A program made the translations under genes and the position numbers. A stretch of 64,000 bases of DNA from an uncultured SAR86 cluster bacterium (GTDB lineage Bacteria > Pseudomonadota > Gammaproteobacteria > Magnimaribacterales > AG-339-G14), in assembly GCA_902578495.1 (NCBI GenBank), contig CACHCY010000001.1:187975-251974 (forward strand), written 5' to 3'. This document shows, in pieces, positions 3-58,060 of the stretch. How positions within the stretch are numbered: position 1 is the first letter of the stretch; every line of letters starts with the position of its first letter. A model generated the notes under the pieces. The model made no database searches. It saw only the letters and a list, made by a program, of their open reading frames with translations, and had not been told where the DNA came from.

Positions 3-842
3 TCTATAAGAAAGAAAGGTGATAAAAAATTAGGTACAAGAACAGAACTTAAAAATATAAATTCTTTCAAATTTGTCGAAAAAGCAATTAATTTTGAAAT
101 AAAACGCCAAATTTCTTGTTTGGAAAAAGGAGAAGAAATTGTTCAGGAAACTAGGCTGTATGATGCTACAAATAATACTACTAGATCAATGAGATCGAAA
201 GAGGAAGCTAACGACTATAGATATTTTCCTGAACCAGACATAATTCCTATTCAAATTACATCTGATCAAATCCAGAGGATCAAAAATGAACTGCCAGAAC
301 TACCTGATGAAAAAAAAGAAAGGTTTATAAATGAATTAGGTCTATCAGAATATGATGCGAGGAATCTTACATATGATCTAGGACTTGCAGATTTCTTTGA
401 AAAAACCTTGGTTAATATTGATGATCCGAAGCTTGTAGTCAATTGGATATTAGGAGACTTTTCAGCCATATTAAATAAATTTGACGTAGAAGCTAAAAAC
501 TCAAAAGTTGATGCAGTCAAATTTGCTGAACTACTTACTTATCTTAAAGAAGAAAAAATCTCTGGACAAGCTACGAAAAAGGTTCTGGAAAACATATGGG
601 AAAATCCAGATTTATCAGTTTCCAAAAGCATTCAAGACCTGGGTTTGGAACAAATATCAGACGACAACGAGATTGAAGAGATAATAGAAAAAGTTATAAG
701 TAATAACCCTGATCAAAAAGAACAGTATCTTTCTGGAAAAGATCGTTTATTCGGATTTTTTGTGGGCCAGGCAATGAAAGAATCCAAAGGCAAGGCCAAT
801 CCTAAGCTAGTAAATGAGATTCTAAAAAAGAAATTAGTCTAA
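3..842 (+). CDS. gatB: Asp-tRNA(Asn)/Glu-tRNA(Gln) amidotransferase subunit B, C-terminal part (5' end outside window)
   Basis: Frame 3 is open from the window edge (SIRKKGDKKLGTRTELKNINSFKFVEKAINFEIKRQ) and runs into listed ORF 120..842. It has a GatB/YqeY-type tail, LFGFFVGQAMKESKGKANP. Confidence 0.9.
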   Translation, partial: SIRKKGDKKLGTRTELKNINSFKFVEKAINFEIKRQISCLEKGEEIVQETRLYDATNNTTRSMRSKEEANDYRYFPEPDIIPIQITSDQIQRIKNELPELPDEKKERFINELGLSEYDARNLTYDLGLADFFEKTLVNIDDPKLVVNWILGDFSAILNKFDVEAKNSKVDAVKFAELLTYLKEEKISGQATKKVLENIWENPDLSVSKSIQDLGLEQISDDNEIEEIIEKVISNNPDQKEQYLSGKDRLFGFFVGQAMKESKGKANPKLVNEILKKKLV

Positions 843-1291
843 GTTACATACATAGTGAGTGCTTCAGCTACATATGCTGGCTTTTCTTGCCCCTCAATTT
901 CCATTTTTATTTCATTTTTAACTAGATATCTTCCATCCCCTTTATCATCTACCGATAACAAAGTAGCTTTTGTTCGAACCTTTGAACCAACATTTACAGG
1001 CGTAAGAAATCTAACCTTATCTAAACCATAATTAAAAGCCATTTTCATGTTCTCTGGAGCTACTTGAGGAGCAGGCATTCCAGCCATCAATGATAATGAG
1101 AGAAAACCATGAGCAATGGTGGAACCGAATAGTGGTGTTGCCTTTTCTTCATCGACATGAATGAATTGATGATCTAACGTTACATCAGCAAATTGATTTA
1201 TTCTTTCTTGATCAATTTCCAACCAATCTGATGTACCCATATATTTTCCTATGTAATCTTTTAAAGTATCTGCTGGTACTAATCCCGCCAT
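839..1291 (-). CDS. MaoC-like (R)-specific enoyl-CoA hydratase / hot-dog fold dehydratase
   Basis: 150 aa. Shows the NodN/MaoC pattern (DQERINQFADVTLDHQFIHVDEEKA...STIAHGFLSLSL). Lies directly downstream of an acyl-CoA synthetase. Confidence 0.8.
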   Translation of the reverse strand: MAGLVPADTLKDYIGKYMGTSDWLEIDQERINQFADVTLDHQFIHVDEEKATPLFGSTIAHGFLSLSLMAGMPAPQVAPENMKMAFNYGLDKVRFLTPVNVGSKVRTKATLLSVDDKGDGRYLVKNEIKMEIEGQEKPAYVAEALTMYVT

Positions 1292-1301
1292 TTCAATCTC
1301 C

Positions 1302-2918
1302 TTATGTAATTAAATGATTTTTATAATCTTCTCTTAAACCTGTTTTTAATAGTTTTCCGGTTGCACCGTGAGGTAACTCATCAATGAAGATCACATCATC
1401 AGGCAACCACCACTTTGCAACTTTATCAGAAAGATACTCTAAAACAGATTCTTTTGTACATTCATCAGAATTTTTAACTACAAACAGTAGAGGTCTCTCA
1501 TCCCATTTTTCATGAGCAACTCCAACGACACAAGCTTCTAAAACTCCGGGGCATCCAAGGGCAGTATTTTCTAGGTCAATAGAACTTATCCACTCACCTC
1601 CAGACTTGATTACATCCTTACTCCTATCTACTATCCTCATATATCCATCTGGCGAAATAGTTGATACATCACCAGTATCAAACCAACCATTTTCTAAAGC
1701 GCTTTCTAATGACTTATAATATCTTTCAATTATTGCTGGTCCTTTAACCATTAACCTGCCAAAAGTTTTCCCATCGTTAGGCAAAGTATCTCCTTCGTCA
1801 TTAACAATTTTAATTTGGCATCCATATATTGCTCTTCCTTGACTGGTTTGAAGCTCATAACGATCTTCTAACTCCATTAAATCCATCTCTGCTGTATCTT
1901 GATTTAATGTTCCTAAAGGACTCATTTCAGTCATTCCCCACCCATGCAAAAGGAAAACGTTATGTTTTTCTTGAAAGTCTTTTATCATCGACTTGGGAGC
2001 AGCAGATCCACCTACCAATACTGAATTTACATTTTTTAGAGTAATTTTCTTTTCATCTAAATAATTAAGTAACCCGAGCCATACTGTGGGAACACCTAGT
2101 AAATTATTCACTCCCTCATCGTTAATCAAGTTGTAAATAGACTCTCCATCAGTGAAAGGACCAGGGAATACCAATTTACACCCAAGCATACTAGCTGCAT
2201 AAGGAACTCCCCAAGCATTAACATGAAACATTGGAACTACTGGGAGGACAACACTTTTTGAAGTTAAATTCATTGCATTTCCTGCGCTTGAGTACCATGC
2301 ATGAAGTATTGTAGACCTATGAGAATATAGAACACCTTTTGGATTTCCTGTTGTGCCAGATGTATAACATAAGGAAGATGCTGTGTTTTCATCAAAAGTT
2401 GGCCAATCAAATTCTTCACTTTCTTCTTTAATTAACTCTTCGTAACACATCAAATTTTCTAACTTTGAATCTTTGGGAAGGTTTTCTTTGTCACATAAAA
2501 CAATAAAGCCTTTCACATTTTTCAAATTTTTAGAAACTGCCTCAATTATTGGTATAAAAGGAAGATCAATAAAAAGATACTTATCTTCAGCATGATTAAC
2601 TATGAAATCTATCTGCTCTGGAAAAAGTCTAGGGTTTAAAGTATGCAATACTGCTCCAATTCCAGAGATTCCAAAATAAAGTTCAAAATGTCGGTAGCCA
2701 TTGACAGCCATTGTGCCGAGAACATCGCCTTCTTTAACTCCTAAGTTAACTAAGGCATTGGCAAGCTGCTTTGATCTTTTTGCAGCATCTAAAATAGAAT
2801 ATCTATGAATGTCTCCTTCAACTCTCTTGCTTACTATTTCAGTTTTAGAATTATTTTGAATTGCATGCTCAAGGATTCCTGAGATGAGCAAAGGTTCAGT
2901 CATCATATTACCCAGCAT
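1302..2918 (-). CDS. fatty-acid--CoA ligase (AMP-binding enzyme family)
   Basis: 538 aa. AMP-binding motif [18 protein letters not shown] block, DTGD, and C-terminal GKLLK lysine. Confidence 0.85.
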
Positions 2919-2934
2919 AATTACCTCTTTATGA

Positions 2935-3993
2935 TTAATATTTATTAAAAGTCTGACTAACTAATGGAGAATATCTTCGATGTAAGTAAGTTTCAATAGT
3001 CTGCTTAGATTTAAAATTTTTTATTAGTTCTATATCATTTAAGGCTTGCACTAAATAAGGTTTCCATTCCAAAAACAAATTATCATCTGTAGTCTCAAAA
3101 ATTGCTTTCTTAATATCTTTTGAACTTCTAATCATTTTATTGATTTCAGATTTATTGAGATTTTTGAAAGGACTATCAAACAAAGGCAGTAGTTCACTGG
3201 GTAAATTTATCTTTTTTTTCTTATCAAAAACCTTGCTTATTAAAAATTCATCAGTGTTTATTAGGCCAGTGCCATTAATAGCGTGTCCATAAGGATTACC
3301 TCTAAAAAAATCCCTACCCGTAATGTCACCTAAAAAAAGCCTTGTGGGACAATAATCGTTTGCATAAAAATTATCCCAAATAACCACAGGATTCTTTATT
3401 ACTTGGCCTAACTCTTTGAGGTGATCTTGAGAAATAAAATCACTAATTACTTTTGGACCCGTCCAAAGAAAAAATAAATCATTATTTATGGTTTCTGATA
3501 CTCCTTCGAGATACTTATCATTTTGAATTCCTTTTTTAGAAAAGCTTTGGCAATAAATTGATGGACAAAACCATCCATTACTAAGGCCCAACTTAGTAGT
3601 TACCTCTGAAATTAATTCGCCGTGAAATTTACCTAAATCCTTGTCATCAGATTCTATTCCAATATTATTTATATCAATATCATCAAATAATAAACCCGCC
3701 TCGGAAAATCCTTTATCAATGGCAAAATTAAACTTTGACAGCAGAAGGTTTAAATCCTTCTTAGATTTTCTATTAAAGTCTGCTCCTGGAGATAATGTAT
3801 ATACTTGAGCTATATTTTTTGGAATGCTTCGTGCTTCAAGAGATTTATCTTCAATTCGCCATTTTTGCCTGATGTAAGCATCTTCTTTTGGCGCATAAAT
3901 GTAATGGGTAATATTACTATTCTTAAAACCATAATCATTTTTTTTTGGCTTTCTATTATAGAAACCTTCTATAAATCCTCTGATTTTCATCAT
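2935..3993 (-). CDS. GH84 family beta-N-acetylhexosaminidase (O-GlcNAcase-like), no signal peptide
   Basis: Blocks GFIEGFYNR, YIYAPKED, LLFDDID, FCPSIYC, LWTGPKVIS and VIWDNFYANDY..RLFLG match human OGA/bacterial GH84 catalytic-domain blocks. The track ORF starts at a TTG (3999). I prefer the ATG at 3993, which forms TAATG with the moeB stop. Confidence 0.7.
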   Translation of the reverse strand: MMKIRGFIEGFYNRKPKKNDYGFKNSNITHYIYAPKEDAYIRQKWRIEDKSLEARSIPKNIAQVYTLSPGADFNRKSKKDLNLLLSKFNFAIDKGFSEAGLLFDDIDINNIGIESDDKDLGKFHGELISEVTTKLGLSNGWFCPSIYCQSFSKKGIQNDKYLEGVSETINNDLFFLWTGPKVISDFISQDHLKELGQVIKNPVVIWDNFYANDYCPTRLFLGDITGRDFFRGNPYGHAINGTGLINTDEFLISKVFDKKKKINLPSELLPLFDSPFKNLNKSEINKMIRSSKDIKKAIFETTDDNLFLEWKPYLVQALNDIELIKNFKSKQTIETYLHRRYSPLVSQTFNKY

Positions 3994-4763
3994 TAACAAT
4001 CACCACAAATTTTACATAGGTTATTTTTTTTAAAAGAAATTTCCCTACTTAAATTATCTTTAAAATCATAATCTTGGAAAATTTGGCAGTTCTTGGATAT
4101 CTTAGTAATAGTTTTTATTGATTCTGAAGCTAACATTGACCCAATTATTCCTACTATTGGAGAAAATATTGCTGATTCTGTACAGCTTAAGTCTTCAGAA
4201 GATGTATCTTCAAATAAGCATTCATAACATGCACTATCCTTTTGAAAATCAAATTTCATAAACTGCCCTTTCCACTGAATGCATGAACCAGAAATTAAGG
4301 ATATTTTATTTTTATAACAGTATTTATTTGTATACCTTCTGGTTTCAAAATTATCAGAACAATCTATAACAATTTCGCTCTTTGTTATTTCATCAGGAAC
4401 ATTATTTTTTTTAAAACTTTGTCTGAATTTTTTTATATTCACATCAGGATTAAGCCTCAATAAAGATGTAACTGCAGCATCGACTTTGAAAGCATTCAAG
4501 TCCTCTTCGCGGAATAAAATTTGTCTTTGTAAGTTGCTTAGATCAACTTGGTCAGGATCAAAGAGGTTTAAGTTGCCAATTCCGCTTGCAACTAAATACT
4601 GCGAGCAGGCGCATCCCAAACCACCAACTCCAATAATCGTGACAGTAGAATTTTTTAGTAGCCTTTGTCCCTCTACCCCTATATCTGCAAGCATGATGTT
4701 TCTACTGTATTTCATCATCTCTTTTTCACTAAAGTTCACTTGGTTAGGCACGCTACTCTCCAT
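3993..4763 (-). CDS. moeB: MoeB/ThiF-family adenylyltransferase (molybdopterin-synthase adenylyltransferase-like)
   Basis: 256 aa. YSRNIML, the IIGVGGLGCACSQYL nucleotide-binding loop, LSNLQRQ, and CYEC plus CKIC zinc-type Cys pairs. Sits immediately after prmC, as in Pseudomonas. Confidence 0.75.
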   Translation of the reverse strand: MESSVPNQVNFSEKEMMKYSRNIMLADIGVEGQRLLKNSTVTIIGVGGLGCACSQYLVASGIGNLNLFDPDQVDLSNLQRQILFREEDLNAFKVDAAVTSLLRLNPDVNIKKFRQSFKKNNVPDEITKSEIVIDCSDNFETRRYTNKYCYKNKISLISGSCIQWKGQFMKFDFQKDSACYECLFEDTSSEDLSCTESAIFSPIVGIIGSMLASESIKTITKISKNCQIFQDYDFKDNLSREISFKKNNLCKICGDC

Positions 4764-5542
4764 TTTCTATTAAAATCTTTTAAAAAAGAAACATCACTAT
4801 AGTCATTTTGATTTGCCATCTTATTGATAGGATCCTTCTGATCAAATCCATGCTCTAAAAGCAACTTCCCATTTTCTTTCAAAAAAGTAACACTATTTTT
4901 TATGATTGTACTAATGTCAGCCAATCCCTTTTTCTCTGAAAAAAGTGCAGACGGTGGCTCAAACCAAATTCCATCCTCACCTCCATCTAAATCATTGCGA
5001 TAAATATATGGTGGATTAGAAATTATCAAATCCATCGGCTCAAAAAGCCATCTTTTATCCCAATCATGCTGAATTAGAACAGAATTTTTTAGATTTAGAG
5101 CTTTCATGTTTTCTCTCGCAACAGAAAGAGCTTCAAAACTTTTATCTGTAAAGGTGCAAGTCCAAAAAGGCTTTTCTTTGGCTATAGACATACCTATAGC
5201 TCCTGATCCTGTTCCAAGCTCAAGAAGTGAACAATTCTCTAAATCAATAGAGATGGCTGTTTCCACTAATAATTCTGACTCTGGTCTAGGGATTAACGTA
5301 CTTTGATTAACCTGAAATTCATCATCCCAAAAAGGTTTTATTCCTGTTATGTATGCCAAAGGGAACCCTTCTTCTCTCTTCTTTACAAGATGGATGAAGG
5401 CTTTATTTGTTGTATCTTGAATTTCAATATCGATTTTTTTATAAAGATCAACTCTTTCAATTTTAAGGATGTGGCACAAAATTAGTTCCTTATCTAATGT
5501 TGGCAGGTTAGAAATTGAAAATAACTTTCGGAGATTTGTCAC
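4736..5542 (-). CDS. prmC: release-factor glutamine N5-methyltransferase
   Basis: 268 aa. LELGTGSGAI SAM motif and the NPPY motif (IISNPPYI). ATGA overlap with the prfA stop. Confidence 0.9.
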   Translation of the reverse strand: MTNLRKLFSISNLPTLDKELILCHILKIERVDLYKKIDIEIQDTTNKAFIHLVKKREEGFPLAYITGIKPFWDDEFQVNQSTLIPRPESELLVETAISIDLENCSLLELGTGSGAIGMSIAKEKPFWTCTFTDKSFEALSVARENMKALNLKNSVLIQHDWDKRWLFEPMDLIISNPPYIYRNDLDGGEDGIWFEPPSALFSEKKGLADISTIIKNSVTFLKENGKLLLEHGFDQKDPINKMANQNDYSDVSFLKDFNRKWRVACLTK

Positions 5543-6630
5543 GAGAGTGTTTTTTCAAGGTTTGATAATAATCTAGCCTGATTTTCTTCTAATAACGTTG
5601 AAATCATGATTTCCATTTCACCATCTAAGAAACCATCCAGATTATGAACTGAAAATTCAATTCTATGGTCAGTGATTCTACTTTGAGGAAAATTGTAAGT
5701 CCTAATTTTCTCAGATCGATCTCCTGACCCAACCATATTTTTTCTTTTTTCAGCTTGCTCTTTAGATAGTTCTTCTTCTGCCATTGCTTTGAGCTTTGCA
5801 CCGAGCAAAGTAAGTGCCTTTGCTTTATTCTTATGTTGAGACCTATCATCCTGGCACTCAACGACTATTCCGGTCGGAATGTGAGTTAACCTCACCGCTG
5901 AATCTGTCTTATTAACATGCTGTCCTCCTGCACCAGAGGCACGAAAAGTGTCAGTTCTGATTTCAGATTTATCTATCTCAACTTCTTCAACATCTTCTAT
6001 TTCTGCAAGAATAGCTACCGAGCATGCTGAGGTATGAATTCTTCCTTGTGATTCAGTTGAAGGAACTCTTTGAACGCGATGTATCCCAGACTCAAACTTT
6101 AATTTTTTATAAACATTCTCTCCAGAGATTTTAATTACTACTTCTTTAAATCCACCTTGCTCGCTTTCTCTTGATGAAATAAGTTCACTTTTCCATCTAT
6201 TTCTTTCTGCCAGCCTTAGATACATTCTATAAAGATCTCCAACAAAAAGTGCCGCCTCATCACCACCGGTTCCGGCTCTAACTTCAACAAAAACATTCTT
6301 ATCATCATTCTCATCGACAGGTATAAGAAGATTCTTCAGCTCTATTTCAATCTCAGATATTCTTTCGTTATTCTCTTTAATTTCCTCTTTTGCTAACTCC
6401 GCTAAATCTATATCAGACTCATTAAGGACTTCTTCAGCACTTGAAATATTGCTTTCACACTGAATGTATTCTTCGAATTTTTCTACAATAGGTTTTAAAT
6501 TAGAATATTCTTTTGATAAAGAGGCATACTGCTTTTGATCATTGATTACATCTGGCATGCTCAATTTAGTCTGAATATCAGAGAAATTATCTTTAATCTC
6601 AGTTAATCTTGTTTTTATTGAATCTAACAT
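5539..6630 (-). CDS. prfA: peptide chain release factor 1
   Basis: 363 aa. GGQ motif (SGAGGQHVNKTDSAVR) and an RF1-type PxT tripeptide (VPSTE). Confidence 0.95.
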   Translation of the reverse strand: MLDSIKTRLTEIKDNFSDIQTKLSMPDVINDQKQYASLSKEYSNLKPIVEKFEEYIQCESNISSAEEVLNESDIDLAELAKEEIKENNERISEIEIELKNLLIPVDENDDKNVFVEVRAGTGGDEAALFVGDLYRMYLRLAERNRWKSELISSRESEQGGFKEVVIKISGENVYKKLKFESGIHRVQRVPSTESQGRIHTSACSVAILAEIEDVEEVEIDKSEIRTDTFRASGAGGQHVNKTDSAVRLTHIPTGIVVECQDDRSQHKNKAKALTLLGAKLKAMAEEELSKEQAEKRKNMVGSGDRSEKIRTYNFPQSRITDHRIEFSVHNLDGFLDGEMEIMISTLLEENQARLLSNLEKTLS

Positions 6631-6648
6631 TTATAAAATTTTAAAAAG

Positions 6649-7164
6649 ATGAATAAAAATTCAATCCTGAGGTCAATTCTACTTATTTTTATTTTAGTAT
6701 CCTATCTTTCGTCTTGTGCAACTGTTAAAGATGAATTAATTACTTCAAAAAATGATAGAAATTTTTTAACTGCAAGTTTTTCATTTAGAACAAGTGAATC
6801 TTTCCTTAACGGAAAAGTCAGTTTTTTAAAACAAAAAGAAAAAATAACAATAAATTTTAAAAGTAGTAGGTTCTATCCAAAATTCAGCCTTGTGTTCAAA
6901 AACAAAGATACATATCAATTACTAGTCAATAATTCTTTCAGAAACAAAGCAGAAGAAATAATTCAAAGGAATGATAATTTAATTTATACACTTTATGCAG
7001 TTGTAGATTGGTACTACAGAGATTGCTTATCTGGAAATTGCAAACTTCTAAAAATAATAGAAGATTCTATCCTTGTTGAAAAAATATCTGATGGTCAAGA
7101 AGATGCGGATAAATTAGTTGCAACTAATCCATTTTATAAACTTCAGATTCAGATAAATAAATGA
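6649..7164 (+). CDS. lolB: outer-membrane lipoprotein LolB-like
   Basis: 171 aa. Signal peptide with lipobox LSSC. Position immediately upstream of and overlapping ispE (ATGA) matches the conserved lolB-ispE-prs order. Sequence similarity to LolB is only loose by eye. Confidence 0.55.
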   Translation: MNKNSILRSILLIFILVSYLSSCATVKDELITSKNDRNFLTASFSFRTSESFLNGKVSFLKQKEKITINFKSSRFYPKFSLVFKNKDTYQLLVNNSFRNKAEEIIQRNDNLIYTLYAVVDWYYRDCLSGNCKLLKIIEDSILVEKISDGQEDADKLVATNPFYKLQIQINK

Positions 7165-7961
7165 AAGTTTCCTGTCCAGCGAAGTTAAACATTGGCTTGA
7201 AAATAAATTCAAAGAGACCTGACGGATATCATGATCTTGAAACCGAGTTCAGATTAATATCTTTGTATGATTATCTTGAAATAAAAGAAAGTAAAAATTT
7301 CCAACTTAATATTAATAATGATGAGATTGAAACTGAAGATAATCTAATTACAAAAGCTTATTTTTTGATGAAAAGCTTATGTAATGAAAAATCTGAATTC
7401 TCTTTTAAAGTACAAAAAAATATACCAATAGGTGCAGGCTTAGGAGGCGGAAGTTCAAATTGTGCTTCTGCATTGATCGTTCTTAATAGACTTTTTAAAT
7501 TAAATCTAACGGACAATAAGTTATTAAAAATTGGACTTAGTCTAGGAAGCGATGTTCCTTTTTTCATAAAAGGAAGAAATTCTATTGCTAAAGGGAGAGG
7601 CGAATTACTTGAAACTATTGAAAGAGAGGCAAATTATTATTTGATTATCTATCCAGATATAAAAGTATCCACGGCTGATGCATTCAAGTTTTATGAAGAA
7701 AATAAAACAGATTTTCCAAAGCATTTAAAAAATGATTTTGAGTACTTTGCAAGAAAAGTATATCCAGAAATAAATGAAATTTTTAACCTCATGTCTCAAT
7801 ATGGAACTGTAGAATTATCTGGAACCGGCTCTTCAATGTATTTAAATTTTAATTCTTCAGAAGAGGCGTATACAATTGCAACGAAAGTTCCGACTAACTG
7901 TAAGTTTTTTGTAACAAGAAGTTTAGATAAGTCTCCGATATATGATGAACTTAATAAATAA
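7161..7961 (+). CDS. ispE: 4-diphosphocytidyl-2-C-methyl-D-erythritol kinase
   Basis: 266 aa. CPAKLNIGL start and GHMP-kinase motif PIGAGLGGGSSNCAS. Confidence 0.9.
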   Translation: MKVSCPAKLNIGLKINSKRPDGYHDLETEFRLISLYDYLEIKESKNFQLNINNDEIETEDNLITKAYFLMKSLCNEKSEFSFKVQKNIPIGAGLGGGSSNCASALIVLNRLFKLNLTDNKLLKIGLSLGSDVPFFIKGRNSIAKGRGELLETIEREANYYLIIYPDIKVSTADAFKFYEENKTDFPKHLKNDFEYFARKVYPEINEIFNLMSQYGTVELSGTGSSMYLNFNSSEEAYTIATKVPTNCKFFVTRSLDKSPIYDELNK

Positions 7962-19961: not shown

Positions 19962-20689
19962 TACTCTAAACTCAGCGCGATATTAGCAAATTCTTTAGGG
20001 TCAAGAGAAGCATTTCCTACTAAAAATCCATCGATATCATCTACTTTGGCAAGATTCTTAGCACTTTCAGAAGTTACGCTGCCACCATAAATCAATGTCA
20101 AATCTGCTCCTAAATTGTCTTTAACTAAATCTTTTATAAGAAGAGAAACCTCTTGTAAATGCTCGTTTTGGACAGCTATTCCAGAACCAATAGCGTAAAT
20201 AGGCTCGTAGGCGATCAAAATTTTATTTGATGTGTTTTGAAGAGGAAATAAATTTTTAGTTAATTGATGTTTTATTTTTTTTTCTGTTCTGCCTTTGGAA
20301 TATTCATCCTGATTTTCACCAATGCATAAAATAGGCATGAGATCACAATCAAAGGCTGTCTGAACTTTATTTAGAATAGTTTCATCGTCTTCGCCTTGAA
20401 GCCTGCTTTCGGAGTGGCCTACTATTGAGTGAGAAACTCCAATGTTTTTAAGCATTTTTCCTGATATTTGACCAGTAAATGCGCCCCCAGTCTCTGAAGA
20501 TAAATTTTGAGCACCGATTAAAATTTTTTTGTGATTTTTTGATGATGTTTTATAAAAATCTTTTATATCCAAATAGTTGGGGCAAATTACTACCTGAATT
20601 TCTTCTGAGATATTATTTAGATCAAAATCTTTCAGCCATGCGTCCAGATTAACAAGATTCATTTTCCAATTTGCAATCAAATGCTTCAT
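19961..20689 (-). CDS. tpiA: triose-phosphate isomerase
   Basis: 242 aa. ANWKMN start, VGHSE(S)R, AYEPIYAIGSG. Confidence 0.9.
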   Translation of the reverse strand: MKHLIANWKMNLVNLDAWLKDFDLNNISEEIQVVICPNYLDIKDFYKTSSKNHKKILIGAQNLSSETGGAFTGQISGKMLKNIGVSHSIVGHSESRLQGEDDETILNKVQTAFDCDLMPILCIGENQDEYSKGRTEKKIKHQLTKNLFPLQNTSNKILIAYEPIYAIGSGIAVQNEHLQEVSLLIKDLVKDNLGADLTLIYGGSVTSESAKNLAKVDDIDGFLVGNASLDPKEFANIALSLE

Positions 20690-22035
20690 GAAATTGATTC
20701 TACAAGATCAGTTAATAAAGCTGAGTGCTCAATAGTCGCTTCTTCAGAATTACTTTCAACCATTATTCTAATCTTGTGTTCTGTTCCAGATTTTCTTATA
20801 AGTACTCTGCCATCAAAAGTTTCTAATAACTCCTCTGATTTTTTTTGAGCTTTCTGCAATTTTTTATTCTTTAAAACTTTATTTCCATCCTTAACTTTTA
20901 CATTGGTAAGAATTTGAGGATATTTTTTAAACTCTGAAAGTAATTCGGGTATTGTTTTATTTAAAACTACAATCGACTGAAGAAACTGAATCGCAGCGAT
21001 TATTCCATCTCCAGTATTTGATTTATCTAGGCAAAGTATATGCCCAGACTGCTCTCCTCCAAGAGTCCAATTAAGTTCATTTAATTTTTGTAAAACATAC
21101 TTATCCCCAACATCTGATCTCACCAACTCAATCCCCTCATCATTAAAAGCTTTTTCTAATCCTTTGTTTGTCATAAGAGTACCAACTACCCCTTTAACTC
21201 CAAGATGGATTTTTGACTCAAATTTATTTTTTGCGATGACATATAAAATATCGTCTCCATCTAATTCTCGACCATTTGAATCAATAATAATTAATCTATC
21301 TCCATCGCCATCAAGAGCAATACCAAAATCTGCATTTTTGCTTAAAACTTCATCTTTTAAAAAATCTATGTTGGTACTTCCACAATCTTTATTAATATTT
21401 AAACCATCCGGACTATCAGCAATCGAATAAACTTCAGCTCCTAACTCTTTAAAAACTTTAGGTGCAACTTCATAGGCGGCGCCATTAGCAGAATCAATAA
21501 CAAGAGTTAAACCTGAAAAAGAGATGTCATCACTTAAAGTATTCTTACAAAATTCAATGTATCTGCCTTTTGCATCACTAATCCTTGCTGCCTTGCCAAG
21601 GTTTTCAGGATGAACGAATTCATAAGCTTCTTCAGCAAATTTCTCAATTTCTCTTTCATCCTCAATTGATAACTTTTCTCCATTTTCATCAAAAAATTTA
21701 ATGCCGTTATCTTCAAATGAATTATGTGAAGCACTGATTACCACTCCAGCATGTCCTTTGAAAGTAGAAACCAGATATGAAATTGCCGGCGTTGGCATAG
21801 GGCCTACTAATCTAACATTTACTCCAGATGAAATAATTCCAGCTTGAAGAGCAGACTCCAGCATGTATCCGGAAATTCTTGTATCTTTTCCGATTACTAA
21901 AGTGTTAATTCCCCTCTTTTTGAAATGTCTTCCTGCAGCATGGCCAAGTTTGAGGACTGACTCTGGATTAACTTCATTATCTATAGATCCCCTTACACCG
22001 TCGGTACCAAAAAATATTAGTTTTCTATCTCTCAT
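20686..22035 (-). CDS. glmM: phosphoglucosamine mutase
   Basis: 449 aa. FGTDGVRG, active-site SASHNSFEDNGIKFF, DGDGDR. Confidence 0.95.
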   Translation of the reverse strand: MRDRKLIFFGTDGVRGSIDNEVNPESVLKLGHAAGRHFKKRGINTLVIGKDTRISGYMLESALQAGIISSGVNVRLVGPMPTPAISYLVSTFKGHAGVVISASHNSFEDNGIKFFDENGEKLSIEDEREIEKFAEEAYEFVHPENLGKAARISDAKGRYIEFCKNTLSDDISFSGLTLVIDSANGAAYEVAPKVFKELGAEVYSIADSPDGLNINKDCGSTNIDFLKDEVLSKNADFGIALDGDGDRLIIIDSNGRELDGDDILYVIAKNKFESKIHLGVKGVVGTLMTNKGLEKAFNDEGIELVRSDVGDKYVLQKLNELNWTLGGEQSGHILCLDKSNTGDGIIAAIQFLQSIVVLNKTIPELLSEFKKYPQILTNVKVKDGNKVLKNKKLQKAQKKSEELLETFDGRVLIRKSGTEHKIRIMVESNSEEATIEHSALLTDLVESIS

Positions 22036-33222: not shown

Positions 33223-34086
33223 TTACTCAGAATAAGTAATAGTAACAACGTTTGAACCCGTGCCTTCACCGTATTCATTGGTGCCAAAGACTCTGTACCA
33301 GTATGTATTTCCAGATAAAATAGAATTATCTGAATAAGAGTCAGTATTCATGCTCGCTATGGCTTCATAAGTACCATCCACAGATTGTTTTCTTTTTAAT
33401 ACATAAGCAGTTTGTCTATCATCACCCTTTTGCCAGGTAAGAGAGGCAAAGGAACCTGATATCGAAATTTTCAGATTCAGGGGAGCAGCGGGAGGAATAT
33501 TATTTCTTTTGCAGTTAGTAACTGAGTCATTTATGTTGCCCATCCTGAAGCATTGGTTTGCGACCATTTCAATTGAATAATTTCCTGTGTTATAACATTC
33601 ATTTGTTTCGCCGCCAGAAGGCTCGCTCACAAATATTTTTCCATTGCTTACAATCGCATTACAACTTTGAGCGCCAGTTTCTTGGAAACTTTGTCCTAAA
33701 TTGTGAGGATAAGATAAGTTAACCTTTTTGCCTTCCTCTATCGATGTGATATTGATAGTCTGACTAACAATGTATAAACCTAAAGAATTTTTCCAATATC
33801 CATTAAAAACCCCGCCACCATCTCCACAAGCTCCCGGTCTGCAAGTTGATGTGCAACTCCAATCTCCAACTAAATCTTGTTCAGAATTGATACCTCCTGT
33901 TTGTAAATTATTTATACGAGTTAAAATTTCATTTAAAACATCTGCCGAGATGACATCCCCAGCATTTATATTTATTGGCTCGGGATTACAAACTACCTCA
34001 TCATAAGGACCATAACCTCCAGGCGTAGTGGACTGAGGAAAGACTAAGTTAGTAAAAGATAAAAAAAGTATTAAAAAAAATTTCAT
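33223..34086 (-). CDS. secreted Cys-rich protein with C-terminal fibronectin type III domain, function unknown
   Basis: 287 aa. Signal peptide MKFFLILFLSFTNLVFPQ. 8 Cys in the ~190-aa N-domain. The C-terminal ~85 aa show the Fn3 pattern PAAPLNL..LTWQ..YVLKR..Y.YRVFGTNEYGEG. Confidence 0.7.
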   Translation of the reverse strand: MKFFLILFLSFTNLVFPQSTTPGGYGPYDEVVCNPEPININAGDVISADVLNEILTRINNLQTGGINSEQDLVGDWSCTSTCRPGACGDGGGVFNGYWKNSLGLYIVSQTINITSIEEGKKVNLSYPHNLGQSFQETGAQSCNAIVSNGKIFVSEPSGGETNECYNTGNYSIEMVANQCFRMGNINDSVTNCKRNNIPPAAPLNLKISISGSFASLTWQKGDDRQTAYVLKRKQSVDGTYEAIASMNTDSYSDNSILSGNTYWYRVFGTNEYGEGTGSNVVTITYSE

Positions 34087-55194: not shown

Positions 55195-55744
55195 TTAGAA
55201 ATTGCTTAATTGGTTTGAAAGATTTTCTATGAATATTTGTGACTCCATATTTCTTAATCATACTCTTATGAAGTTTGGTTGAATAACCTTTATGTTTGTC
55301 AAAAAAATAACCTTTAAATTTATTTTCTAGCTCTCTCATGTATTCATCTCTATAGACTTTTGCAATTATAGAAGCGGCCATTACTTCCCTAATTTTAGTA
55401 TCTGCTTTGATTATAAATTCTACAGATTTATCATTAAAGAAATTATCGTTTCCATCAATAATTATTTTTGAGAAAGGTTTTTTTACTTTACTTATTGCCC
55501 TTATCATTGAAAGCTTGGTAGCTTCCCGGATATTATATTTATCTATTTCCTCTACAGAAGATAAACCAATAGACCACTCAAGAGATAGTTCCTTAATTTG
55601 ATTAGAATATTCTTTACGTTTTTTTTCTGAAAGATCTTTAGAGTCCTTAAGCCCAAAGATTTTATTTTCTTCTAAAATAACCGCAGCAGACACAACCGGA
55701 CCAGCAATGGATCCTCTTCCAACTTCGTCTACTCCAAGAATCAT
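55187..55744 (-). CDS. rnhB: ribonuclease HII
   Basis: 185 aa. GVDEVGRGSIAGPVV and DSK.LS motifs. Confidence 0.93.
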   Translation of the reverse strand: MILGVDEVGRGSIAGPVVSAAVILEENKIFGLKDSKDLSEKKRKEYSNQIKELSLEWSIGLSSVEEIDKYNIREATKLSMIRAISKVKKPFSKIIIDGNDNFFNDKSVEFIIKADTKIREVMAASIIAKVYRDEYMRELENKFKGYFFDKHKGYSTKLHKSMIKKYGVTNIHRKSFKPIKQFLNE

Positions 55745-56856
55745 ACTAAATCAAAAAGACAGTTAAATTTATCTTCTTGATTTACTTTCAAAGAATTATG
55801 AATCTTATGGAATTTGCTTTTTATCCGATCTAGGCTTGTTGCCTCACTCATATTAAGCAGCTCTTTTTCTATTTGATCGGCATTTACAAAACCTTGTCTC
55901 AATTCTGGGATTAATTTCTCCTCTGCAAGAATGTTTGGAAGTGAAATGTATTTTGTTTTTAAAAATTGATTTAAAAGAAAGTTATTAAAAAAATTTGTTT
56001 TGTAGCAAACTACTGGAGGAGCCTGATTTAAAAGACACTCAAGAGCAGCAGTGCCAGACACACTAACTGCTAAATCAGTCGCGGCAAGAACTGAATCTGT
56101 CTTATCGATAAATATTTTGTAAGTTTTTGATTTTAAATTACTTAAATTTCTAGAAATTTCGTTTTCATCTTTAAAGGGGATTAAAAATTGATAATCTTCT
56201 TTTTTACTCAGAGAATTAATCGTTTCAATCATCGCGGGTAAATGAGCTTTGATTTCAGATTTTCTGCTACCAGGTAAAAAAGAAAGTGTTTTGAGATCAG
56301 GATCTAAGTCTAATTCCAATTTATATTTTAATTTATCAATATTAGTTGAAATGCGAGATGCTTTAGGGTGACCTACAAAAACTGAATTAACGCTGAAATT
56401 TTGAAGAAAACTTTTTTCAAAAGGGAATAAATTCAAAACAAGATCTAAAAAATCATTAAATTTTTTTGCTCTGTTAGATCTCCACGCCCAAACTTGAGGA
56501 CAAACGTACTGTACTGTTTTGATATTGAGCTTTTTTTTTAAAATTCGTGAAATTCCTAAATTTAATGATGGGCTGTCTATTCCTATAAAAATATCTATTT
56601 TTTTATCTATGAGGTGATTAATTAGCTCGTTTCTCTTTTTAAGAATTCTATTGATTTTAAAGATTGGATCAATCAACCCCATTACTTGAAGTTCTTCATT
56701 TGAATCAAATGAATTAAAACCTTCTTTTTTCATTTCAGATCCACCAAGGCCAAAAAACTCTATTAATGGATCTTTAGATTTAAGGTTTCTAATTAAGTCT
56801 GAACCGAGAATATCTCCAGATGACTCTGTGGCACATAACCCCACTTTTAATGGCAT
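55741..56856 (-). CDS. lpxB: lipid-A-disaccharide synthase
   Basis: 371 aa. Position and length match. GE.SGD..G..L start-region pattern (CATESSGDILGSDL). Confidence 0.9.
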   Translation of the reverse strand: MPLKVGLCATESSGDILGSDLIRNLKSKDPLIEFFGLGGSEMKKEGFNSFDSNEELQVMGLIDPIFKINRILKKRNELINHLIDKKIDIFIGIDSPSLNLGISRILKKKLNIKTVQYVCPQVWAWRSNRAKKFNDFLDLVLNLFPFEKSFLQNFSVNSVFVGHPKASRISTNIDKLKYKLELDLDPDLKTLSFLPGSRKSEIKAHLPAMIETINSLSKKEDYQFLIPFKDENEISRNLSNLKSKTYKIFIDKTDSVLAATDLAVSVSGTAALECLLNQAPPVVCYKTNFFNNFLLNQFLKTKYISLPNILAEEKLIPELRQGFVNADQIEKELLNMSEATSLDRIKSKFHKIHNSLKVNQEDKFNCLFDLV

Positions 56857-57626
56857 TAGCGAACAATTCCTCGATCAGAACTTTGGATTGAATCAAGAAA
56901 AAGTTTTCCTTCATCAAAATCATATACTTCTTTTTCAATCTCAGAGATGGCTTGATCGAGTTTAAGTTTTCTTAAATATACGAGCTTATAGAATTTTTTT
57001 AACAGAGATGAATGTTCTTTTCCAAGATCTAATCTTTGAATTCCAATTACATTCAGTCCTCTTGGTATGGCAGGATTTCCACTAACTCTTACAAAGGCAG
57101 GAATATCTTTTGAAACTGCAGACCCCATTGCACAAAAACTATATGGGCCAATATTGCAAAATTGATGAACTAAAGTATAACCACCTAACCTTGCTCCTTT
57201 TGCAATATTTACAACTCCAGCTAAAGCAACATTATTAACTAAAACAATATCATCATCTAAAGCGCAATCATGAGCCACATGAGAATAAGCCATAAAGAGA
57301 TTATTATTTCCAATTGTTGTTAAACCTTTCTCTTGGGCAGTCCCTCTATTTATAGTAACTCCCTCTCGTATTTGGTTGTTGTTACCAATCTTGAGGAAAG
57401 TTTCTTCGTCTTCGTATTTTAAATCTTGAGGATCTCCTCCAATGCTTGCAAAAGGATATATATGGTTGTTTTTTCCAAGCTTTGAATTTTTATGAATGAC
57501 TACATTCGATTCAATTATAGTTCCTGAACCAATCTCTACATCTTTACCAATAGATGAATACGCACCAACGGAGGCATTTTTAGCAATTTTTGCTGAGGTA
57601 TCAATTATTGCAGTTTCATGAATCAT
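56856..57626 (-). CDS. lpxA: acyl-ACP--UDP-N-acetylglucosamine O-acyltransferase
   Basis: The canonical start MIHETAIIDTSAKIA is at 57626 (ATGA overlap with fabZ). Hexapeptide repeats. The track start at 57662 is an extension into fabZ. Confidence 0.93.
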   Translation of the reverse strand: MIHETAIIDTSAKIAKNASVGAYSSIGKDVEIGSGTIIESNVVIHKNSKLGKNNHIYPFASIGGDPQDLKYEDEETFLKIGNNNQIREGVTINRGTAQEKGLTTIGNNNLFMAYSHVAHDCALDDDIVLVNNVALAGVVNIAKGARLGGYTLVHQFCNIGPYSFCAMGSAVSKDIPAFVRVSGNPAIPRGLNVIGIQRLDLGKEHSSLLKKFYKLVYLRKLKLDQAISEIEKEVYDFDEGKLFLDSIQSSDRGIVR

Positions 57627-58060
57627 TTTGGTCTGTCTGCACATAAAATCGTAGCAGAACAAACTAAATTCTCTTCCAATGATGCCTTGCAGTCAAACTT
57701 CCATATGCCGCGCCTATCCTGAATTTTCTTAGATTCTAATGTCAATATACTTGGAGGAACTACTGGAGATCTAAAACGAACATTATCAGCTCCAACAAAG
57801 TAGTAAATTGAACCCTCTTCAGGGGTCTTATTCATGGTAACAAAACCTAAAATTCCTGATACTTGAGCTAATGCCTCAATAATTATTACTCCAGGAAGTA
57901 TAGGGTTATCAGGAAAATGACCTTTAAAATAATACTCCTCTTCTTTAACCTCTTTGAAACCTTTTATATATTCATCTTTAATTATTTCTGTCACCCCATC
58001 AACAAATAAGAAAGGTTCTCTATGAGGTAAATATCTTTTTATATCTTGCTTTTCAATCAT
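57623..58060 (-). CDS. fabZ: 3-hydroxyacyl-ACP dehydratase FabZ
   Basis: 145 aa. LPHREPFLFVD, HFP..PILPGV, EALAQ. Confidence 0.95.
   Translation of the reverse strand: MIEKQDIKRYLPHREPFLFVDGVTEIIKDEYIKGFKEVKEEEYYFKGHFPDNPILPGVIIIEALAQVSGILGFVTMNKTPEEGSIYYFVGADNVRFRSPVVPPSILTLESKKIQDRRGIWKFDCKASLEENLVCSATILCADRPK

What the first reader, a model, noticed from the sequence alone, without database searches (positions are those of the whole stretch)
2935..3993. Signal-peptide-less GH84 (O-GlcNAcase-like) enzyme translationally coupled to moeB behind prfA-prmC
The product matches, block for block, the catalytic domain of human O-GlcNAcase and bacterial GH84 enzymes. The matches are GFIEGFYNR (hOGA VVEGFYGR), YIYAPKED (YLYAPKDD), LLFDDID with the catalytic Asp-Asp pair (ALLFDDID), FCPSIYC (FCPTEYC), LWTGPKVIS (LWTGPKVVS) and VIWDNFYANDY..RLFLG (VIWDNIHANDYDQKRLFLG). 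A helical C-terminal region follows. There is no signal peptide or lipobox, so a cytoplasmic location is predicted. The ATG forms TAATG with the moeB stop, and moeB overlaps prmC by 28 nt, so the gene looks co-expressed with translation-termination genes. From memory, murI occupies this slot after moeB in Pseudomonas aeruginosa. A cytoplasmic GH84 retained in such a compact genome implies an intracellular beta-linked GlcNAc substrate. No GT41/OGT-like transferase is present in this window.
Basis: partly seen in the sequence, partly recalled or inferred. Interest (0 to 1): 0.55.

Follow-up and report, generated by a model that had tools for sequence, protein, structure and literature searches.

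The report
Leaderless GH84 GlcNAc-hydrolase conserved in SAR86
The gene is a real, intact, cytoplasmic relative of human O-GlcNAcase, kept at the same chromosomal spot throughout the abundant, tiny-genomed SAR86 ocean bacteria; its natural substrate is unknown, and the best guess is recycled cell-wall fragments.

Summary
Window 2935-3993 (-) encodes a 352-aa GH84 enzyme (Pfam NAGidase E=6e-37; human OGA E=2e-30). It has the Asp-Asp catalytic pair and every sugar-binding residue of hOGA. The AlphaFold model is confident (pLDDT 91): an eight-stranded barrel plus a C-terminal helical bundle, best matching the leaderless OgOGA, hOGA and TtOGA. An in-frame stop two codons upstream of the start leaves no room for a signal peptide, and 97 of 101 homologues are equally leaderless.

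The window comes from SAR86 (Magnimaribacterales). In every SAR86 locus retrieved, including the cultured, closed-genome HIMB1674, the gene sits between prfA-prmC and an acyl-CoA synthetase-MaoC pair. It is therefore an old, vertically inherited gene under purifying selection (dN/dS 0.13). The TAATG junction with moeB is real, but moeB is absent from this slot in many SAR86 lineages, so that link is incidental.

No OGT lies in the window. Published tables show AmpG in nearly all SAR86 genera but NagZ missing from 17 of 22, including HIMB1674. My preferred and unproven role is a NagZ substitute in muropeptide recycling. True O-GlcNAc cycling is not excluded. This is a new member of a known kind, of moderate interest.

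The parts
2935..3993 (-). GH84 beta-N-acetylglucosaminidase gene (352 aa plus stop)
   Evidence: ORF. Pfam PF07555 E=6e-37. PDB sequence hits: hOGA 2e-30, OgOGA 1e-25. AF2 model pLDDT 91. Foldseek: OgOGA, hOGA and TtOGA at E about 1e-19 to 1e-20.
3262..3993 (-). Catalytic (beta/alpha)8 barrel, residues 1-244. Eight strands are predicted. No helices are predicted after strands 1 and 2, and this stretch is 13 residues shorter than in hOGA.
   Evidence: DSSP of the model: strands at 5-9, 30-33, 62-67, 98-102, 140-143, 174-177, 203-207 and 237-240. Gaps against hOGA are seen and against longer homologues.
3679..3684 (-). Codons GAT GAT for the catalytic pair Asp104-Asp105 (hOGA Asp174-Asp175)
   Evidence: Read from the sequence. 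Aligned to hOGA LLFDDID. Nearly invariant in 35 homologues. Residue positions checked.
2938..3261 (-). C-terminal helical bundle (residues 245-352), like the stalk of OgOGA and hOGA. It carries the family-invariant Glu309 and near-invariant Trp310.
   Evidence: Helices at 245-256, 266-272, 281-300, 305-326, 330-340 and 343-351. Foldseek alignments of about 400 columns to OgOGA, hOGA and TtOGA include this domain. Invariant columns.
3991..3995 (-). TAATG junction: the moeB stop overlaps the GH84 start by one base. GGTGA lies 6 nt upstream, inside moeB.
   Evidence: Sequence; ORF coordinates.
3993..4763 (-). moeB/thiF-family adenylyltransferase, upstream neighbour. It is present at this slot only in some SAR86 lineages.
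   Evidence: Pfam ThiF E=7e-71. NCBIfam MoeB subfamily 258.7 bits, just below the cut-off of 266. Presence and absence across loci.
4736..5542 (-). prmC (release-factor glutamine methyltransferase), a conserved upstream neighbour in all SAR86 loci
   Evidence: NCBIfam TIGR03534 at 239.5 bits against a cut-off of 199. Synteny.
5539..6630 (-). prfA (release factor 1), first gene of the same-strand array
   Evidence: PCRF and RF-1 Pfam domains on the identical gene in L001. Synteny.
1302..2918 (-). AMP-forming acyl-CoA synthetase, 16 nt downstream of GH84. A conserved downstream neighbour in all SAR86 loci.
   Evidence: Pfam AMP-binding E=5e-68. Synteny.
839..1291 (-). MaoC-like dehydratase, last gene of the same-strand array
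   Evidence: Pfam MaoC_dehydratas E=1.6e-23. Synteny.

Best explanation
The gene encodes an active, cytoplasmic, retaining exo-beta-N-acetylglucosaminidase of family GH84. It should work by substrate-assisted catalysis. Asp104 polarises the substrate's own 2-acetamido group, which attacks C1 to form an oxazoline intermediate. Asp105 acts as the general acid/base. Lys36, Tyr147, Trp206, Asn208, Asp213, Tyr214 and Asn240 hold the GlcNAc in a deep pocket. This enzyme-level assignment is shown by sequence and model (confidence about 0.9).

The gene is an ancient, vertically inherited core gene of SAR86 (Magnimaribacterales), probably transcribed with prfA-prmC(-moeB) and translationally coupled to moeB in this lineage.

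Its physiological role is inferred, not shown. Most likely it removes the non-reducing GlcNAc from GlcNAc-beta-1,4-(anhydro)MurNAc muropeptides that AmpG brings into the cytoplasm. That is the NagZ step of peptidoglycan recycling, in a clade where the GH3 NagZ has mostly been lost. The released GlcNAc would feed back towards UDP-GlcNAc or central metabolism. The overall confidence given here is for this full statement, role included.
For: Enzyme identity:
- Pfam NAGidase at 128 bits.
- hOGA, OgOGA and BtGH84 hits at 1e-30 to 1e-21. The family profile hits hOGA at 2.5e-79 and aligns Asn240 with hOGA Asn313.
- Invariant K36, Y147, W206, D207, N208, N212, D213 and N240, and near-invariant D104 and D105, across 35 homologues at 23-95% identity to the window protein.
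- AF2 pLDDT 91 and pTM 0.88. Foldseek top hits are OgOGA, hOGA and TtOGA, with TM-scores (query-normalised) up to 0.77.

Functional gene: dN/dS is 0.13, similar to prmC and moeB at 0.11.

Cytoplasmic location:
- The ORF cannot extend more than 2 codons upstream.
- 97 of 101 homologues with a recognisable strand-1 motif start it within 25 residues of the N-terminus.

Conservation:
- In all SAR86 loci, with GH84 identity from 96% down to 31% and including the closed genome of HIMB1674 (L039), GH84 lies between prfA-prmC(-moeB) and acs-maoC.
- SAR86 sequences form one clade in a rough NJ tree.

Role:
- Ramfelt et al. 2024 (PMC11582366, Table S5) report ampG in 21 of 22 SAR86 genera and in HIMB1674. 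They report nagZ (K01207) as absent from 17 of 22 genera and from HIMB1674.
- So the muropeptide permease is near-universal, the canonical cytoplasmic GlcNAc-ase is mostly missing, and GH84 tracks AmpG.
- Priest et al. (bioRxiv 10.1101/2022.08.12.503524) already listed GH84 with GH103 as 'peptidoglycan recycling' in a SAR86 MAG that has only 7 CAZymes.
- In the closest non-SAR86 homologues (Fibrobacteria L038, L086, L087), a NamZ-MurU-AmgK cell-wall salvage cluster lies 2.3 kb away.
Against: - None of the papers found here shows a GH84 enzyme cleaving GlcNAc-beta-1,4-(anh)MurNAc; my own recollection agrees. Characterised members act on O-GlcNAc peptides, aryl glycosides or beta-1,3/1,6-linked mucin glycans.
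- The protein is closer to protein-directed OGAs (hOGA, OgOGA, TtOGA) than to glycan-scavenging GH84s. It keeps the hOGA residues Tyr69, Phe223, Val254 and Tyr286 as Tyr12, Phe151, Val182 and Tyr214, which from memory flank the peptide in hOGA (not checked here).
- GH84 seems present in all SAR86 branches, so probably also in the five nagZ-positive genera. There is thus no clean either/or pattern. I could not map my loci onto the published genera.
- The nagZ absence rests on KEGG orthology calls in mostly incomplete genomes. A GH3 'bglX' is universal in SAR86.
- The Fibrobacteria neighbourhood is seen in only one sub-lineage and on the opposite strand. Other relatives have housekeeping neighbours.
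- ampG is not in this window, and the rest of this genome was not available.
Confidence: 0.42

Rival explanations
1. It is a true protein O-GlcNAcase. SAR86 would modify cytoplasmic proteins with beta-O-GlcNAc (or a related protein-linked GlcNAc) using a transferase encoded elsewhere, and this enzyme would remove it, as in Thermobaculum terrenum and animals.
For: - The best sequence and fold matches are hOGA, OgOGA and TtOGA, including the stalk-like helical bundle.
- The residues that match the hydrophobic residues around the hOGA sugar pocket are conserved in the window protein.
- The family is leaderless.
- Bacterial intracellular O-GlcNAc systems exist: T. terrenum (PMC4683255) and Yersinia pestis HmwC (PMC11329713, listed).
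Against: - No GT41 or TPR-glycosyltransferase is in the 64-kb window or within 10 kb of the gene in any of the SAR86 or Fibrobacterota loci examined.
- A regulatory cycle needing two enzymes and many targets is costly for genomes of 1.0-1.7 Mb.
- OgOGA also cleaves O-GlcNAc proteins in vitro with no known physiological role, so resemblance to OGA does not establish protein substrates.
- No pHAT domain is present.
Confidence: 0.13
2. It is a catabolic cytoplasmic hexosaminidase. It would finish the breakdown of imported GlcNAc-terminated oligosaccharides or glycoconjugates, such as chitobiose, N-glycan cores or GlcNAc-glycolipid head groups. These would be taken up by SAR86's many TonB-dependent transporters, and the products would feed carbon and nitrogen metabolism.
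For: - The chemistry and location are the same as in the preferred explanation.
- SAR86 relies on TonB-dependent transporters and degrades membrane lipids, including glycolipids (PMC11582366 abstract).
- The gene is always next to an acyl-CoA synthetase and a MaoC dehydratase.
- Bacterial GH84s do act on glycans with several linkage types (PMC10245121).
Against: - The adjacency to acs-maoC is part of a larger collinear block of unrelated housekeeping genes, so it carries little functional weight.
- No GlcNAc or chitobiose transporter, nagA/nagB or chitinase is in the window.
- The HIMB1674 paper does not mention chitin or GlcNAc use at all.
- A catabolic accessory gene would be expected to be patchy like manB, malZ and nagZ, not universal.
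Confidence: 0.22
3. It is a secreted or periplasmic glycan-scavenging enzyme whose start was mis-called.
For: Many characterised bacterial GH84s (BtGH84, CpNagJ, BbhIV) are secreted multidomain enzymes.
Against: - An in-frame stop lies two codons upstream of the ATG, and that space is the moeB coding region.
- Only 1 of 101 homologues with a recognisable strand-1 motif (P0107) has a leader.
- There are no CBM, FN3 or anchor domains, and the protein ends at residue 352.
Confidence: 0.02

Closest known systems
OgOGA, the GH84 of Oceanicola granulosus (PDB 2XSA/2XSB/7KHS)
   Same: A bacterial GH84 barrel followed by a helical bundle, with no pHAT domain. It is the top Foldseek hit (E=3.5e-20, TM-score 0.74 normalised to the query). 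It has the Asp-Asp pair and the same sugar-pocket residues. Its physiological substrate is likewise unknown.
   Different: OgOGA has 447 residues against 352 here, with only about 21-22% identity over the structural alignment. The SAR86 protein lacks predicted helices after strands 1 and 2. OgOGA comes from an alphaproteobacterium, not from a streamlined genome, and is not known to be a clade-wide core gene.
Human O-GlcNAcase (OGA/MGEA5), catalytic and stalk domains
   Same: It is the highest-scoring solved relative by sequence (E=2e-30 for the single protein, 2.5e-79 for the family profile). All catalytic and GlcNAc-binding residues are conserved. The helical stalk-like domain is shared.
   Different: The SAR86 protein has no N-terminal disordered region, no 150-residue insertion and no pseudo-HAT domain. 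No partner OGT is known. Protein substrates are not shown.
TtOGA of Thermobaculum terrenum (PDB 5DIY)
   Same: An intracellular bacterial GH84 with a helical bundle and no HAT domain. It is a strong profile hit (253 bits) and a Foldseek hit.
   Different: TtOGA was chosen because its genome also encodes a leaderless GT41 OGT. No such partner has been found for SAR86 so far; only the window and the gene flanks were examined.
NagZ (GH3 cytoplasmic beta-N-acetylglucosaminidase of peptidoglycan recycling)
   Same: This is the proposed functional analogue: a cytoplasmic exo-enzyme that removes GlcNAc from AmpG-imported GlcNAc-anhMurNAc. NagZ is missing from most SAR86 genera, whereas AmpG is kept.
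   Different: It is an unrelated family with a different mechanism. From textbook knowledge, GH3 uses an enzyme nucleophile, whereas GH84 uses the substrate's acetamido group. This is resemblance of role only, and it is inferred.
Secreted bacterial GH84s (BtGH84 BT_4395, Clostridium perfringens NagJ, Bifidobacterium BbhIV)
   Same: The same catalytic domain and mechanism.
   Different: Those enzymes carry signal peptides and extra N- or C-terminal modules (CBM, FN3, FIVAR, anchors) and act on host glycans. The SAR86 protein has none of these, and they score lower against it.

Membership tests
Glycoside hydrolase family 84 (Pfam NAGidase PF07555) | Significant match to the family profile above the curated cut-off | tested here: met
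   128 bits against a cut-off of 25, E=6e-37, covering profile positions 1-230 of 295. The family profile A1 hits hOGA at 270 bits.
Glycoside hydrolase family 84 (Pfam NAGidase PF07555) | (beta/alpha)8 barrel fold superposable on solved GH84 structures | tested here: met
   AF2 model with pLDDT 91 and eight strands. Foldseek probability is 1.00 to OgOGA, hOGA, TtOGA and BtGH84, and TM-scores (query-normalised) run from 0.61 to 0.77. Atom-level geometry of the catalytic residues could not be measured, because no coordinates were accessible.
Glycoside hydrolase family 84 (Pfam NAGidase PF07555) | Adjacent catalytic Asp-Asp pair (hOGA D174/D175) | tested here: met
   D104-D105 in LLFDDID, aligned to hOGA LLFDDID. 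Near-invariant in the family. Codons GATGAT at 3679-3684.
Glycoside hydrolase family 84 (Pfam NAGidase PF07555) | GlcNAc-pocket residues (hOGA G67, Y69, K98, Y219, W278, N280, D285, Y286, N313) | tested here: met
   G10, Y12, K36, Y147, W206, N208, D213, Y214 and N240 align to them. Most are invariant in 35 homologues.
Glycoside hydrolase family 84 (Pfam NAGidase PF07555) | Beta-N-acetylglucosaminidase activity inhibited by PUGNAc or thiamet-G | not testable with these tools
   This needs recombinant protein.
Protein O-GlcNAc cycling system (OGA with OGT) | Intracellular OGA with a stalk-like helical domain | tested here: met
   No leader is possible. The helical bundle at residues 245-351 aligns with the OgOGA, hOGA and TtOGA stalk regions.
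Protein O-GlcNAc cycling system (OGA with OGT) | A GT41 O-GlcNAc transferase without a leader in the same genome | tested here: inconclusive
   Absent from the 64-kb window and from the flanks of related loci. Whole SAR86 genomes could not be scanned.
Protein O-GlcNAc cycling system (OGA with OGT) | O-GlcNAc-modified cytoplasmic proteins that the enzyme deglycosylates | not testable with these tools
   This needs lysates of HIMB1674 or in-vitro assays.
Protein O-GlcNAc cycling system (OGA with OGT) | C-terminal pseudo-HAT domain (eukaryotic OGA only) | tested here: not met
   The protein ends at residue 352 after the helical bundle, and there is no GNAT hit on it.
NagZ-type step of peptidoglycan recycling (functional class, not homology) | Membership of GH3 (the NagZ family) | tested here: not met
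   The only Pfam and NCBIfam hits are GH84. Any NagZ-like role would be non-orthologous.
NagZ-type step of peptidoglycan recycling (functional class, not homology) | Cytoplasmic location together with the AmpG muropeptide permease in the genome | tested here: inconclusive
   The cytoplasmic location is supported. AmpG is reported in 21 of 22 SAR86 genera and in HIMB1674. It is not in this window, and this genome's genus could not be identified.
NagZ-type step of peptidoglycan recycling (functional class, not homology) | Hydrolysis of GlcNAc-beta-1,4-(anhydro)MurNAc | not testable with these tools
   No papers found here report this for GH84.

The most novel reading that the evidence does not exclude
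SAR86, one of the most abundant and most genome-reduced bacterial groups of the surface ocean, might run a genuine intracellular protein-GlcNAc cycle. This human-OGA-like enzyme would be the eraser, and the writer would be an as yet unrecognised transferase. Its conserved position behind prfA-prmC would then hint at translation factors as targets. Nothing here excludes this, because whole genomes could not be scanned for a transferase.
Probability: 0.1. Interest if true: 0.8.

Novelty: new member of a known kind. Interest (0 to 1): 0.4.

Why it matters
Leaderless bacterial GH84 enzymes (OgOGA, TtOGA) have been used as structural stand-ins for human O-GlcNAcase. What they do in their own cells is essentially unknown.

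Here such an enzyme turns out to be a fixed, vertically inherited gene of an entire order, SAR86. [quoted passage not shown] Retention under those conditions argues that the activity is needed.

The AmpG-present, NagZ-absent pattern gives a concrete hypothesis: a GH84 doing the NagZ step of cell-wall recycling. A cultured strain with a closed genome (HIMB1674) carries the orthologue, which should make the hypothesis testable.

If confirmed, this would be the first physiological role assigned to this branch of GH84 in bacteria, and a case of non-orthologous replacement in a core pathway. If a transferase is found instead, it would extend O-GlcNAc signalling to abundant marine bacteria.

Tried and rejected
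- **Mis-called start or hidden signal peptide.** Rejected. The ORF extends at most 2 codons upstream, and homologues are leaderless.
- **Decaying gene or pseudoenzyme.** Rejected. dN/dS is 0.13, all catalytic residues are intact and the model is confident.
- **Functional link to moeB.** Rejected. moeB is missing from this slot in many SAR86 lineages, while GH84 stays.
- **Functional link to translation termination, or to acs-maoC, from adjacency.** Judged uninformative. The whole ten-gene block is collinear across the order.
- **Conserved partner genes around non-SAR86 homologues.** The recurring neighbours are NUDIX, FolB, an SDR, UbiD, SprT and HisS, with no glycosyltransferase. Only one Fibrobacteria sub-lineage has NamZ-MurU-AmgK nearby.
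- **Promoter and terminator scan of 700-7300.** Counts were no higher than in shuffled sequence, so the scan supports no operon boundary.
- **Mapping my loci onto the 22 genera of Ramfelt et al., to test whether GH84 and nagZ exclude each other.** This failed. The tables use GCA accessions, my loci carry WGS contig names, and GC content does not discriminate.
- **Literature on GlcNAc or chitin use by SAR86 and on the P. aeruginosa murI arrangement.** Nothing usable was found.
Full report
**What is there.** Window 2935-3993 on the minus strand is a 352-codon ORF beginning MMKIRGFIEGFYNR.
- It hits Pfam NAGidase (GH84, PF07555) at 128 bits against a cut-off of 25 (E=6e-37). It has no other domain.
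- NCBIfam offers only a sub-threshold match to the secreted NagJ-type equivalog.
- Against solved structures, the best sequence matches are human O-GlcNAcase (E=2e-30), OgOGA of Oceanicola granulosus (1e-25), BtGH84 (4e-21), TtOGA (7e-21) and C. perfringens NagJ.
- By that alignment, hOGA G67, Y69, K98, D174, D175, Y219, W278, N280, D285 and Y286 correspond to G10, Y12, K36, D104, D105, Y147, W206, N208, D213 and Y214. A family profile places N240 on hOGA N313.

**Structure.** I aligned 35 homologues whose identity to the window protein ranges from 23% to 95% (A1).
- K36, R42, W45, Y147, W206, D207, N208, N212, D213, N240 and E309 are invariant. D104, D105, G10, Y12 and Y214 are nearly so.
- AlphaFold2 on this alignment gives a confident model (pLDDT 91, pTM 0.88). 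It has eight barrel strands followed by a helical bundle (residues 245-351).
- Foldseek against the PDB ranks OgOGA first (E=3.5e-20, TM-score 0.74), then many hOGA entries (TM-score up to 0.77) and TtOGA. The alignments span about 400 columns and so include the stalk-like bundle. BtGH84 scores lower.
- One peculiarity: no helices are predicted after strands 1 and 2. This stretch is 13 residues shorter than in hOGA, and shorter than in most homologues. The barrel is trimmed.

**Location and coupling.**
- The moeB stop TAA (3995-3993) and the GH84 ATG (3993-3991) form TAATG. GGTGA lies 6 nt upstream.
- The furthest in-frame start is a TTG two codons upstream. A signal peptide or lipobox cannot be encoded.
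- Of 101 database homologues with a recognisable strand-1 motif, 97 start it within 25 residues of the N-terminus. Only one (P0107) has a leader.
- The array prfA (5539-6630), prmC (4736-5542), moeB (3993-4763), GH84, acyl-CoA synthetase (1302-2918) and MaoC (839-1291) is same-strand, with overlaps or gaps of 16 nt or less.
- A consensus scan found no promoters or terminators above the shuffled expectation. Co-transcription is plausible but not shown.

**Whose gene is it.**
- A scan of one genome per species found 261 loci. The best 13 (93-96% identity) are SAR86 single-cell genomes, so the window is from SAR86 (Magnimaribacterales).
- In every SAR86 locus fetched, GH84 lies between prfA-prmC and acs-maoC. 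GH84 identity falls to 31%, and the set includes the cultured, closed-genome strain HIMB1674 (L039, CP151794). This position sits inside a collinear block prs-ispE-prfA-prmC-(moeB)-GH84-acs-maoC-gatB. A Tara contig shows the same.
- moeB is an indel at this slot. It is present in the window clade, the 47%-identity clade and a few others, and absent from this slot in HIMB1674-like and SAR86B-like genomes. The coupling to moeB is therefore lineage-specific.
- GH84 diverges fast between clades (31-48% identity, against 61-65% for prfA, 65-84% for acs and 62-89% for maoC).
- Among close relatives its dN/dS is 0.13, like prmC and moeB (0.11). That indicates purifying selection.
- A rough NJ tree places all SAR86 sequences in one clade, sister to a Fibrobacterota group, with hOGA outside. 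The tree has no support values.

**What does it act on.** The chemistry is clear: removal of a terminal beta-GlcNAc by substrate-assisted catalysis, inside the cell. The aglycone is not known.
- No GT41 or TPR glycosyltransferase is in the window. I read all 55 ORFs of at least 150 aa and Pfam-checked the ambiguous ones. The only glycosyltransferase is LpxB.
- No glycosyltransferase is a conserved neighbour in Fibrobacterota or other relatives. Their recurring neighbours are NUDIX, FolB, an SDR, UbiD, SprT and HisS.
- The most informative evidence is published. Ramfelt et al. 2024 (PMC11582366, Table S5) report ampG, the permease that imports GlcNAc-anhMurNAc muropeptides, in 21 of 22 SAR86 genera and in HIMB1674.
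- The same table reports nagZ (K01207), the canonical cytoplasmic enzyme for the next step, as absent from 17 of 22 genera and from HIMB1674. The main text says nagZ is confined to the Suzuki family and one RedeBAC7D11 genus.
- HIMB1674 carries the GH84 orthologue.
- Priest et al. (bioRxiv 10.1101/2022.08.12.503524) listed GH84 with GH103 under 'peptidoglycan recycling' in a SAR86 MAG that has only seven CAZymes.
- In the closest non-SAR86 relatives (Fibrobacteria L038, L086, L087), a NamZ-MurU-AmgK cell-wall salvage cluster lies 2.3 kb away on the other strand.
- I therefore favour a NagZ-substitute role. This is an inference.

**Against that role.**
- The papers I found report no GH84 acting on GlcNAc-MurNAc.
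- The enzyme resembles protein-directed OGAs most.
- GH84 probably co-occurs with nagZ in some genera, which I could not resolve.
- The nagZ absence rests on KEGG orthology calls in mostly incomplete genomes, and a GH3 'bglX' is universal in SAR86.
- The rivals are true O-GlcNAc cycling and catabolism of imported GlcNAc-glycans. Neither is excluded.

**Comparison and novelty.**
- This is a member of GH84. The profile, fold, Asp-Asp pair and pocket-residue criteria are all met.
- Within GH84 it belongs to the leaderless 'barrel plus helical bundle' type, exemplified by OgOGA and TtOGA, and by the hOGA catalytic and stalk domains.
- Such enzymes are known, and public annotation already names relatives 'beta-N-acetylglucosaminidase domain-containing protein'.
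- Four things appear to be unreported; the papers found here list GH84 in SAR86 only as a CAZyme count:
  - The gene is a fixed, syntenic core gene of the whole SAR86 order.
  - This clade's version is trimmed.
  - It tracks AmpG where NagZ is missing.
  - A cultured strain carries the orthologue, which opens a route to experiments.
- I rate it a new member of a known kind, with moderate interest (0.4).

Noticed in passing
window 3993-4763 (-); loci L036-L085: The moeB/thiF-family gene is an insertion/deletion at this locus. It lies between prmC and GH84 in the window clade, the 47%-identity clade and L042, L051, L054 and L085. It is absent from this slot in HIMB1674-like and SAR86B-like genomes. 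Its NCBIfam MoeB score (258.7 bits) is just below the subfamily cut-off of 266.
   Followed up: partly
window 3814-3966 (-), GH84 residues 10-60: AlphaFold predicts no helices after barrel strands 1 and 2. This stretch is 13 residues shorter than in hOGA and is also shorter than in the roughly 384-aa SAR86 homologues. The TIM barrel appears trimmed in this and the 47%-identity clade.
   Followed up: partly
window 3064-3069 (-), GH84 residues E309-W310: A Glu-Trp pair in the C-terminal helical bundle is conserved across 35 homologues at 23-95% identity to the window protein (E309 invariant, W310 at least 90%). This suggests the bundle contributes to function, perhaps to the aglycone site. Its position relative to the pocket could not be checked.
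   Followed up: no
L038 4346-7453; L086/L087 2529-5690: In Fibrobacteria relatives, a NamZ (exo-muramidase), MurU-like nucleotidyltransferase and AmgK-like kinase cluster lies 2.3 kb from the GH84 gene on the opposite strand. This is a cell-wall sugar salvage cluster.
   Followed up: partly
protein P0006 (ENA contig, 4.8 kb): It looks chimeric. Its N-terminal half resembles the P0088/VPRIYAD type. From VIIWDNFYANDYCPTRLFLGDITGRDF onward it is almost identical to the window protein. This is probably a chimeric metagenome assembly rather than recombination.
   Followed up: no
window 33223-34086 (-): A 287-aa protein with an N-terminal hydrophobic leader and many Cys and Gly residues has no Pfam hit. 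By eye, its C-terminal part looks fibronectin-III-like.
   Followed up: partly
window 6649-7164 (+): A 171-aa lipoprotein-like ORF (LSSCATV lipobox) sits in the position of lolB, divergent from prfA with only 18 nt between the two starts. It has no Pfam hit. The JGI gene calls also show no domain for it.
   Followed up: partly
window 20686-22035 (-) and 55741-59001 (-): By eye, glmM (phosphoglucosamine mutase, UDP-GlcNAc synthesis) and the lpxD-fabZ-lpxA-lpxB cluster are in the same window. LpxB is confirmed by Pfam. These are the only amino-sugar genes I recognised here, and none is adjacent to GH84.
   Followed up: no
loci L006-L085: GH84, prmC, moeB and ispE diverge much faster between SAR86 clades (31-48% identity) than prfA, acs, maoC and prs (61-89%). 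Within the window clade their dN/dS is still about 0.1.
   Followed up: partly
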